Shown here: in pieces, positions 85-975 of the stretch | How positions within the stretch are numbered: the stretch's first letter is position 1 | Layout of the letters: the number at the start of each line of letters is the position of its first letter | From: a virus | Taxonomy: Duplodnaviria > Heunggongvirae > Uroviricota > Caudoviricetes | IMG/VR virus record: IMGVR_UViG_2529293218_000002 | Span: 1 to 5,231 of that record | DNA length: 5,231 bases | Reading direction: 5' to 3' (one strand) | Program-made: the position numbers and the translations under genes | Notes under the pieces: generated by a model | The model's input: the letters and a program-made list of their open reading frames with translations, nothing else | Told to the model about the DNA's origin: nothing | Databases searched by the model: none

Positions 85-975
85 ATGAAGTTATCCAGCG
101 TGGCAATTATGGCCCGCCTGGCTGATTTCAGTAATGACGAAGGTGTGTGCTGGCCATCAATTGAAACCATTGCCCGCCAGATTGGCGCGGGGATGAGCAC
201 CGTCAGAACGGCTATCGCACGGCTGGAAGCAGAAGGCTGGTTAACGCGTAAGGCGCGTCGCCAGGGTAACCGCAATGCGTCGAATGTTTATCAGCTTAAC
301 GTTGCGAAGCTTCAGGCAGCGGCATTTTCTCAACTGTCAGATTCTGACCCGTCAAAATCTGACGCATCAAAATCTGACCCGTCAAAATTTGATGCGTCGA
401 AATCTGGCAAAAAAGCGGGTTTTCACCCGTCAGAATCTGGCGGGGATCCGTCAGTAAAATCAAAACATGATCCGTCAGATAAAAAACCTTCTCGTCCGGA
501 CGCTTCGCAACCGGACACGCAGACGGATGAACAGGATTTTTTAACTCGCCATCCTGATGCGGTTGTATTCAGCCCTAAAAAGCGCCAGTGGGGGACGCAG
601 GATGATTTGACCTGTGCACAGTGGCTCTGGAAAAAAATCATCGCCCTGTACGAGCATGCCGCCGAATGTGACGGCGAGGTGGTTCGTCCCAAAGAACCGA
701 ACTGGACAGCCTGGGCAAACGAAATTCGCCTGATGTGTGTGCAGGATGGTCGTACTCATAAACAAATCTGCGAGATGTACAGCCGCGTCAGTCGCGATCC
801 GTTCTGGTGCCGTAACGTGCTCAGCCCGTCGAAGCTGCGGGAAAAATGGGATGAGCTTTCCCTGCGCTTATCGCCGTCCGTCAGCACGTACACCGAAAAA
901 CGCGAGGACCCGTACTTCAAAGCCAGTTACGACAACGTGGACTACAGCCAGATCCCGGCAGGATTCAGGGGGTGA
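85..975 (+). CDS. Phage replication initiator (lambda O-like organisation): N-terminal helix-turn-helix, repetitive linker, DnaT-like C-terminal domain
   Basis: First ATG of the frame (in-frame TAA at 49..51). N-terminus KLSSVAIMARLADFSNDEGVCWPSIETIARQIGAGMSTVRTAIARLEAEGWL resembles the HTH_36-type domain of phage replication proteins. The middle is a low-complexity DPSKS-type linker encoded by tandem 15-bp DNA repeats. The C-terminus, ending SQIPAGFRG, resembles the DnaT-like C-terminal domain as I recall it. Weak SD (gggg, 71..74). Confidence 0.7.
   Translation: MKLSSVAIMARLADFSNDEGVCWPSIETIARQIGAGMSTVRTAIARLEAEGWLTRKARRQGNRNASNVYQLNVAKLQAAAFSQLSDSDPSKSDASKSDPSKFDASKSGKKAGFHPSESGGDPSVKSKHDPSDKKPSRPDASQPDTQTDEQDFLTRHPDAVVFSPKKRQWGTQDDLTCAQWLWKKIIALYEHAAECDGEVVRPKEPNWTAWANEIRLMCVQDGRTHKQICEMYSRVSRDPFWCRNVLSPSKLREKWDELSLRLSPSVSTYTEKREDPYFKASYDNVDYSQIPAGFRG
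343..402. repeat. Four tandem 15-bp direct repeats (iteron-like) inside the replication initiator gene; degenerate copies continue to about 480
   Basis: tctgacccgtcaaaa (343..357), tctgacgcatcaaaa (358..372), tctgacccgtcaaaa (373..387), tttgatgcgtcgaaa (388..402). Further ccgtcag-containing units at about 426..440, 447..461 and 471..487, followed by an A-rich stretch (cagataaaaaacc). Confidence 0.85.

What the first reader, a model, noticed from the sequence alone, without database searches (positions are those of the whole stretch)
338..490. Iteron array embedded in the replication initiator gene: candidate origin of replication
Four tandem 15-bp repeats, plus at least three degenerate ccgtcag-containing copies with irregular spacing, followed by an A-rich stretch, all lie inside the initiator CDS. 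The same DNA encodes a DPSKS-type low-complexity linker. This mirrors phage lambda, where the origin iterons sit inside gene O and encode the interdomain linker, so the segment is probably the cognate origin bound by the N-terminal HTH domain of the same protein.
Basis: partly seen in the sequence, partly recalled or inferred. Interest (0 to 1): 0.45.

Follow-up and report, generated by a model that had tools for sequence, protein, structure and literature searches.

The report
Prophage replication origin inside initiator gene
A run of short repeated DNA sites inside a prophage replication-initiator gene is almost certainly that phage family's replication origin, arranged as in phage lambda, so it is a well-supported but unsurprising new example of a known design.

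Summary
Positions 337-411 carry five in-register 15-bp units with core TCARAWTCTGRC, each a near-palindrome GTCAGA-A-TCTGAC. A sixth unit lies at 430-441. Two GATCCGTCAG repeats at 445 and 469 sit in the least stable coding DNA of the window. All of this encodes a predicted disordered linker (aa 85-143) between an N-terminal winged-helix domain and a helical C-terminal domain.

Comparison with about 75 non-identical homologues from many Enterobacterales genera shows the DNA itself is under selection. Synonymous sites are nearly frozen in the repeats but not in the adjacent DNA-binding domain. One motif is kept in two reading frames. Copy number varies in steps of 15 bp. The repeats travel with the N-terminal domain across three unrelated C-terminal domains. 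Repeat edge bases change with the recognition helix.

The lambda-like reading (cognate iteron origin inside the initiator gene) is supported, though only by comparison; no replication test exists for this family. The protein is not a lambda O homologue (Pfam HTH_36, PHROG 391), and no helicase-loader gene follows it. In this window IS3-family insertions have removed the promoter and the first 17 codons, so this copy is probably a remnant. New member of a known kind; moderate interest.

The parts
1..82 (.). End of an IS3-family insertion sequence. It is the inverted copy of 5150-5231 and is context, not part of the origin. It replaces the native upstream region (pR, cro, cII) and the first 17 codons of the initiator gene.
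   Evidence: 82-nt inverted repeat, 99% complementary. It matches IS3-family transposase loci in thousands of E. coli records. Intact relatives (SfII, E. coli strain 113) have 51 more coding bases at this point.
85..975 (+). Replication initiator gene, 5'-truncated (296 aa against 313 aa in intact relatives).
   Evidence: phrog_391 'replication initiation O-like', E 8e-131. Pfam HTH_36, E 5.3e-11, with no hit to lambda Phage_rep_O. 98-99% identical to genes annotated 'DNA replication protein O' or 'O protein family' in SfII, SfIV and other phages.
85..336 (+). Codes for the N-terminal winged-helix DNA-binding domain (aa 1-84 of the truncated ORF); the presumed recognition helix is MSTVRTAIARL.
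337..411 (.). Tandem array of five 15-bp units starting at 337, 352, 367, 382 and 397. Each contains the dyad-symmetric core GTCA(A/G)A(A/T)TCTGAC. These are the proposed initiator-binding iterons.
   Evidence: Same register and codon-independent conservation in 65-75 homologous loci. Copy number changes by whole units among near-identical relatives.
412..429 (.). Variable spacer (A-run, then GCGGGTTTTCACCCG). Its last 10 bases begin the conserved 21-nt motif TTTTCACCCGTCAGAATCTGG.
   Evidence: Low conservation of the spacer and high conservation from GGTTTT onward in 70 loci.
430..441 (.). Sixth, isolated unit (TCAGAATCTGGC), 33 bp from the fifth. It is part of the conserved core.
   Evidence: The same 21-nt motif is kept in a different reading frame in phage P27 and twice, in two frames, within one gene in locus L160.
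445..478 (.). Two direct repeats GATCCGTCAG (445-454 and 469-478), 24 bp apart. Each contains a Dam site (GATC) and is followed by an A-rich tail. These are the proposed unwinding-element repeats.
   Evidence: GAT-CC is invariant and synonymous sites are frozen across 70 loci. The repeats are retained even where the iteron type differs (L172, L173, L167, L169).
455..490 (.). A-rich, low-stability segment; candidate site of first strand opening.
   Evidence: Positions 455-484 are 27% GC, the third least stable 30-mer of the window (99.9th percentile).
490..975 (+). C-terminal module of the initiator (from SRPDASQP, aa 136): a helical domain that presumably recruits host replication proteins. 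It is exchangeable between initiators with unrelated N-terminal domains.

Best explanation
Positions 337-490 are the replication origin of a lambdoid prophage family (SfII, SfIV and CPS-53-like), embedded in the gene of its own initiator.

Shown:
- The DNA holds five tandem units plus one isolated 15-bp dyad-symmetric unit, followed by two GATC-containing 10-mers in a short A-rich, easily melted stretch.
- It encodes a disordered linker between a winged-helix domain and a helical C-terminal domain.
- The nucleotide sequence, not the peptide, is under purifying selection.
- The element is inherited as one module with the winged-helix domain.

Inferred:
- Dimers of the winged-helix domain bind the dyad-symmetric units and assemble a nucleoprotein complex like the lambda O-some.
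- The complex stresses and opens the adjacent A-rich GATC repeats.
- The C-terminal domain then brings in the host DnaB helicase, directly or through host DnaC, because no phage loader gene follows.
- Transcription from the early-right promoter through the gene probably helps, as in lambda.

In this window the origin DNA is intact. IS insertions have removed the promoter and the first 17 codons of the initiator, so this copy probably cannot fire on its own. It could still respond to, or titrate, an initiator of the same specificity made by another prophage.
For: 1. The repeats are real and confined to this site.
2. In 75 non-identical homologues, the first Ser codon of the unit is TCA in 93% (17% elsewhere in the same genes) and the second is TCT in 85% (10% elsewhere). 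Lys is AAA in 100% (62% elsewhere) and Asp is GAC in 79% (46% elsewhere).
3. Conserved residues of the N-terminal domain use 2-6 codons, with the top codon at 0.3-0.8. The linker block FDPSESGGDPSV instead has TTT 1.0, GAA 1.0, TCT 0.97, GAT 1.0 and GTA 1.0.
4. The 21-nt motif is kept in another reading frame in P27, and twice in two frames in L160.
5. The 12-mer occurs 1-7 times in nearly all of 75 full-length loci, always 298-520 nt into the gene, with only 5 hits elsewhere in about 260 kb.
6. The same N-terminal domain and repeats are joined to three unrelated C-terminal domains. The same C-terminal domain is joined to unrelated N-terminal domains that carry different repeats.
7. Recognition helices of the STVRTAI type go with (G/A)TCA..TGAC. 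Helices STVYGAL, STVITLI and STVIGLI go with TCCAGAATCTGGA.
8. Copy number differs by -1, +1 or +2 units among relatives with identical N-terminal domains.
9. The linker is predicted disordered and is flanked by a winged helix.
10. The site contains the least stable coding DNA of the window.
11. The arrangement has precedent: the origins of lambda, P22, phage L and Stx phages are iterons inside the initiator gene (PMC8022706, PMC7466680).
Against: - No experiment on this family was found: the SfIV genome paper does not mention an origin, and other literature searches found nothing.
- The A-rich stretch is short (30-45 bp at 27-36% GC), much weaker than lambda's AT-rich region.
- There are no DnaA boxes above chance.
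- No helicase-loader gene is adjacent, so the loading step is unexplained.
- Some natural variants have lost the tandem array and keep only two units plus the GATC core (P0068/L174), so the array itself may be dispensable.
- Units within an array and loci within a clade are not independent, so the codon counts overstate the number of independent observations.
- The helix and repeat co-variation may rest on one or a few evolutionary events.
Confidence: 0.77

Rival explanations
1. The units are initiator-binding sites, but they serve control rather than initiation: autoregulation, copy-number control by handcuffing, or exclusion of related phages. The true start site would then lie elsewhere in the phage genome.
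For: The tandem array varies in copy number and is absent from some natural variants, as expected of auxiliary sites. The A-rich element is weak.
Against: The invariant part (one unit, two GATC repeats and an A-rich tail) has the layout of an origin core, not of an operator. No promoter-like site lies near it. It sits in mid-gene, where lambda, P22 and phage L have their origins (PMC8022706). No other repeat cluster is present in the 5.2-kb window.
Confidence: 0.1
2. The conserved DNA is kept for a reason unrelated to the initiator. It could be a short homology patch that promotes module exchange between mosaic phages. Alternatively it could be a binding site for a host or other phage protein, for example SeqA or Dam acting on the GATC repeats.
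For: The module junction lies immediately downstream, at nt 490. The GATCCGTCAG repeats do not change when the iteron type changes, so something other than the variable recognition helix may read them. An adenine methyltransferase gene lies just downstream in 35 of 74 loci.
Against: A recombination patch does not explain dyad symmetry, tandem amplification in 15-bp steps, or the link between edge bases and the recognition helix. Sequence conservation falls off after position 486, before the junction itself.
Confidence: 0.08
3. The repeats are only a slippage-generated low-complexity peptide linker, and their DNA has no function.
For: The linker is predicted disordered. Copy number changes in frame.
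Against: Synonymous positions are nearly invariant across genera, while those of the neighbouring essential domain are saturated. The motif is retained in different reading frames that encode different peptides.
Confidence: 0.03

Closest known systems
Phage lambda ori within gene O (and the six-iteron Stx phage variants such as 933W)
   Same: The iterons have internal dyad symmetry and lie in the middle of the initiator gene, followed on the same side by an AT-rich stretch. This DNA encodes the linker between the origin-binding N-terminal domain and the C-terminal domain that recruits the replication machinery. The N-terminal domain and origin are exchanged as one specificity module (PMC7466680, PMC8022706; established knowledge of lambda).
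   Different: There is no sequence homology: Pfam Phage_rep_O is not matched and the N-terminal domain is HTH_36. Units are 15 bp head to tail rather than about 19-20 bp. The AT-rich part is much shorter. Two invariant GATC-containing repeats are present. No P-like, DnaC-like or DnaB-like gene follows.
Phage P22 gene 18 and phage L gene 18 origins
   Same: Distantly related or unrelated origin-binding proteins each carry their own distinct repeats inside their coding region: four repeats of about 20 bp in P22 and six 11-bp repeats in phage L. For phage L these were likewise inferred from sequence (PMC8022706).
   Different: The repeat sequence and the protein family differ. P22 and L encode their own DnaB-type helicase (gene 12) next to the initiator; this module does not.
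Iteron plasmids and secondary chromosomes with methylation-sensitive origins (P1 oriR, Vibrio cholerae oriCII)
   Same: Winged-helix initiators bind directly repeated sites next to an unwinding element, and GATC sites in the origin are needed for function (PMC2865523 and its reference to Abeles and Austin 1987).
   Different: In those replicons the origin lies outside the initiator gene and DnaA boxes are present. Here the origin is in the gene, no DnaA boxes are found, and any role of methylation is untested.
Bacillus phage SPP1 G38P and oriL, and DnaD-like 'replisome organizer' proteins
   Same: From memory: the SPP1 origin-binding protein binds repeats inside its own gene. The C-terminal domain here shows PHROG matches to 'DnaD-like helicase loader' and 'replisome organizer' and weak fold matches to G39P and DnaD-like domains.

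Membership tests
Iteron-type theta origin (lambda-like, located inside the initiator gene) | Three or more directly repeated sites of the same sequence at regular spacing | tested here: met
   Five tandem units plus one isolated unit; the 12-mer is found 9 times against 0.25 expected. Homologues carry 3-8 copies in 65 loci.
Iteron-type theta origin (lambda-like, located inside the initiator gene) | Repeats are bound specifically by the cognate initiator | not testable with these tools
   Support is indirect only: the repeats are inherited with the winged-helix domain, and their edge bases co-vary with the recognition helix.
Iteron-type theta origin (lambda-like, located inside the initiator gene) | An adjacent AT-rich DNA-unwinding element | tested here: inconclusive
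   Positions 455-484 are 27% GC and at the 99.9th percentile of instability in the window, but the stretch is only 30-45 bp long.
Iteron-type theta origin (lambda-like, located inside the initiator gene) | Location within the initiator coding sequence, encoding the interdomain linker | tested here: met
   Nt 337-513 correspond to aa 85-143, which have pLDDT below 50 and lie between two folded domains.
Iteron-type theta origin (lambda-like, located inside the initiator gene) | Supports initiator-dependent autonomous replication | not testable with these tools
   No published test was found for this family.
Lambda O protein family (Pfam Phage_rep_O, PF04492) | Sequence match to the family profile | tested here: not met
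   No PF04492 hit at E up to 0.01. The hits are HTH_36, GntR, HTH_29 and PaaX.
Pfam HTH_36 (PF13730) / PHROG 391 'replication initiation O-like' | Profile match above the curated threshold | tested here: met
   HTH_36 scores 42.6 bits against a cut-off of 25. phrog_391 matches with E 8e-131 over the full length.
Lambda-type two-gene replication module (initiator plus helicase loader or helicase) | A P-like, DnaC-like or DnaB-like gene immediately downstream of the initiator | tested here: not met
   The next genes are PerC-like, Dam, LexA-DNA-binding-domain-like and RusA. A DnaC-like gene follows in only 7 of 74 homologous loci.

The most novel reading that the evidence does not exclude
The invariant core (one iteron plus two GATCCGTCAG repeats with A-rich tails) could be a methylation-gated unwinding element, comparable to the GATC-initiated 13-mers of oriC or the GATC repeats of P1 oriR. 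Origin firing would then depend on the Dam state set by the host or by the phage's own Dam, which is encoded just downstream in about half of the family. The initiator would act alone, with its DnaD-like C-terminal domain capturing host DnaB-DnaC directly without any phage loader.
Probability: 0.2. Interest if true: 0.55.

Novelty: new member of a known kind. Interest (0 to 1): 0.35.

Why it matters
This initiator family is very common in Enterobacterales prophages: 2636 database clusters at E up to 1e-5, and most of the window matches in 1203 of 5426 complete E. coli genomes. It includes the serotype-converting Shigella phages SfII and SfIV. Its members are mostly annotated only as 'helix-turn-helix domain-containing protein'. 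Locating the origin and its specificity determinants gives a concrete target for replication and incompatibility studies. It explains why the linker DNA is frozen. It also offers a clear example of DNA-level selection inside a coding sequence, with the same motif kept in two reading frames. Conceptually it extends the lambda design to a non-homologous initiator and does not overturn anything.

Tried and rejected
- Rfam scan of the whole window: no family at gathering score.
- Promoter scan of 1-1100: no sigma-70-like site, so there is no sign of an internal promoter or operator role.
- Minus-strand terminator-like hairpin at 429-416 with a T-run: its stem is not preserved in the 70-locus consensus, so I treat it as chance.
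- A-run AAAAAAG at 409-415 as a frameshift site: it is in the wrong register for a dnaX-type heptamer, and the KK residues are not conserved among homologues. Rejected.
- DnaA boxes: 8 matches at up to 1 mismatch against 8.5 expected, none in the array.
- PDB sequence search: only weak MarR-type hits.
- Single-strand folding of 330-495 is much more stable than shuffles (z -4.4). This follows directly from arrays of palindromic sites, so I do not read it as evidence for an RNA element.
- Literature searches for an origin described in SfII, SfIV, CPS-53/yfdO or HTH_36 initiators found nothing specific.

Full report
**What the window is.** The 5231-bp window is the early-right and nin region of a lambdoid prophage. 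Its genes, in order, are:
- an O-like replication initiator (85-975);
- a PerC/YfdN-like regulator (972-1466);
- a Dam methyltransferase (1466-2119);
- a protein with only a LexA DNA-binding domain (2116-2442);
- RusA (2439-2828);
- a KilA-N protein (2848-3657);
- a DUF968/HNH protein (3659-4654);
- a Q antiterminator (4668-5153).

It is 97-98% identical to Shigella phage SfII and several Escherichia phages over 79-5153. The outer 82 bases at each end are inverted copies of an IS3-family element end. Compared with SfII and with E. coli strain 113, which carries an intact version, the left IS has removed cI, cro, cII and the first 17 codons (MSTKLTGYVWDGCAASG) of the initiator. The right IS has cut Q to 161 of 250 residues. 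The locus is therefore a clipped prophage remnant.

**Checking the observation.** Tandem Repeats Finder gives 4.3 copies of a 15-bp unit at 343-406. The repeat finder puts six copies in register over 322-444, with spacings 15, 15, 15, 15 and 33. It also finds a separate pair of GATCCGTCAG repeats at 445 and 469. Each unit is a near-palindrome, GTCA(A/G)A(A/T)TCTGAC. The 12-mer TCARAWTCTGRC with at most one mismatch occurs nine times counting both strands, all within 336-441, against 0.25 expected. Positions 455-484 are 27% GC and form the third least stable 30-mer of the window. The two less stable ones lie at gene boundaries. The description is therefore accurate. One refinement is needed: the 'degenerate ccgtcag copies' are one true sixth unit plus two GATC-bearing 10-mers of a different kind.

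**Is the DNA or the peptide conserved?** I fetched ten annotated phage relatives, 80 close relatives from viral contigs and 80 diverse loci from one-genome-per-species contigs. The diverse set is mostly Enterobacterales genera, with 52-100% identity in the N-terminal domain.

- The 12-mer occurs 1-7 times in nearly all of the 75 full-length loci, always 298-520 nt into the gene. Only five hits fall elsewhere in about 260 kb.
- In 75 non-identical linkers, the first serine of the unit is TCA in 93% (17% elsewhere in the same genes) and the second is TCT in 85% (10% elsewhere). Lysine is AAA in 100% (62% elsewhere) and aspartate is GAC in 79% (46% elsewhere).
- Conserved residues of the neighbouring N-terminal domain use 2-6 codons, with the commonest at 0.3-0.8. 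The linker block F-D-P-S-E-S-G-G-D-P-S-V has essentially one codon per residue: TTT 1.0, GAA 1.0, TCT 0.97, GAT 1.0, GTA 1.0.
- The 21-nt motif TTTTCACCCGTCAGAATCTGG (window 420-440) reads GFHPSESG here. In phage P27 it is kept in another frame (VLTLQNLD). In locus L160 it occurs twice, 32 bp apart, in two frames (GFHPSDSD and VFTRQNLT).

The nucleotide sequence is what selection preserves. These counts are not independent observations, because units and loci share ancestry. The contrast with the adjacent domain, and the change of reading frame, do not depend on that.

**Modularity and co-variation.** The same N-terminal domain with the same repeats is joined to three unrelated C-terminal domains:
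- the window, SfII and Klebsiella P7641 type;
- the phiNP, Eeyore and YeP1 type;
- the P27 type.

Conversely, the window's C-terminal domain also occurs behind unrelated N-terminal domains. These carry different repeats and lack the GATC core (HannyBb, P0099, P0111). The junction is at SRPDASQP, nt 490. The finding's interval 338-490 is thus exactly the linker part of the N-terminal module.

Recognition helices of the STVRTAI type go with units edged (G/A)TCA..TGAC. Helices STVYGAL, STVITLI and STVIGLI go with TCCAGAATCTGGA. A STVKSAI protein has TTGACCCGTCAA-type units. More distant relatives keep the palindromic core but space it at 30-33 bp. Among relatives with identical N-terminal domains, the array differs by -1, +1 or +2 units. 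A Klebsiella prophage lineage has lost the array and retains two units plus the core. The two GATCCGTCAG repeats are invariant throughout, even where the iteron type changes.

**The protein.** An AlphaFold model built on 30 sequences gives three regions:
- a winged helix at aa 1-84;
- a disordered stretch at aa 85-143 (pLDDT below 50; nt 337-513);
- a confident helical domain at aa 146-265.

**Interpretation.** The evidence fits an iteron-type origin inside the initiator gene, as established for lambda and Stx phages (PMC7466680) and described for P22 and phage L (PMC8022706). The sequence features, the DNA-level selection, the modular inheritance and the domain layout are shown. The mechanism is inferred:
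- winged-helix dimers bind the units;
- the complex opens the A-rich GATC repeats;
- the C-terminal domain recruits host DnaB, with or without DnaC.

I put this explanation at about 0.77. The main rival is that the units are control sites and initiation occurs elsewhere (0.10). A second rival is that the conserved core serves recombination or another protein (0.08). A purely peptide-level explanation is effectively excluded (0.03).

**Negative results.** I found no Rfam family, no promoter-like sites and no DnaA boxes above chance. I found no published description of an origin for this family.

**Verdict.** This is a new, uncharacterised member of a well-known kind of origin, attached to an initiator that is not homologous to lambda O. 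The features that go beyond the textbook case are the two invariant GATC repeats, the 15-bp head-to-tail packing of dyad-symmetric sites, and the absence of a phage loader. In this particular window the origin DNA is intact, but its initiator gene is decapitated by an IS element.

Noticed in passing
window 1-82 and 5150-5231: The window ends are inverted copies of an IS3-family element end. The IS insertions clip the initiator gene (17 codons and the whole upstream control region are lost) and the Q antiterminator gene (161 of 250 aa remain; the stop codon comes from the IS end). The 5.07-kb prophage fragment is thus bracketed by inverted IS copies, either as a composite-transposon-like arrangement or because a short-read contig ended in repeats.
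   Followed up: partly
window 972-2119: No P-like, DnaC-like or DnaB-like gene follows the initiator. The next genes are a PerC/YfdN-like regulator (its start overlaps the initiator stop by 4 nt) and a Dam methyltransferase. Across 74 homologous loci an adenine methyltransferase gene lies just downstream in 35 and a DnaC-like gene in 7.
   Followed up: partly
window 1945-1959 and 2603-2617: A perfect 15-nt inverted repeat (GAAGCAGGTGCCGAC / GTCGGCACCTGCTTC) lies 643 nt apart, inside the Dam and RusA genes. By my rough estimate it is unlikely by chance in 5.2 kb. It is unexplained.
   Followed up: no
window 409-429: An A6G run is followed by a small hairpin (GCGGGTTTTCACCCG). On the minus strand this scores as terminator-like. 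A -1 frame from the A-run would stop at 461-463. Two database relatives (L027, L137) are frameshifted near here and encode only the N-terminal domain plus the array. The feature is not conserved in the family consensus.
   Followed up: partly
L008 (phage HannyBb) 1505-2470; L009/L010 (mEp460, ST64B) 1758-2576: Initiators with other N-terminal domains carry their own different in-gene repeats at the equivalent linker position. HannyBb has ATYGGNTCAAAA three times, encoding IGSK. mEp460 and ST64B have GGTAGTGCA-type repeats encoding GGSA. This suggests a general rule for this group of modules.
   Followed up: partly
L174/L175 (Klebsiella pneumoniae prophage, protein P0068) 3001-3861: This is a natural variant, seen on 19 contigs, in which the tandem array and spacer are deleted. 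Two adjacent units and the GATC core remain, within an otherwise complete-looking early region. It could define the minimal origin, or it could mark a defective lineage.
   Followed up: partly
window 488-516: A further 15-bp-spaced pair, CTTCTCGTCCGGAC / CTTCGCAACCGGAC, lies just past the module junction in the C-terminal module. HannyBb-type genes share this stretch.
   Followed up: no
L098, L122, L127 (genome records titled Vagococcus sp., Chryseobacterium sp., Martelella alba): Initiator genes of the enterobacterial type, 82-89% identical in the N-terminal domain, appear in assemblies of unrelated phyla. Contamination of those assemblies seems likely.
   Followed up: no
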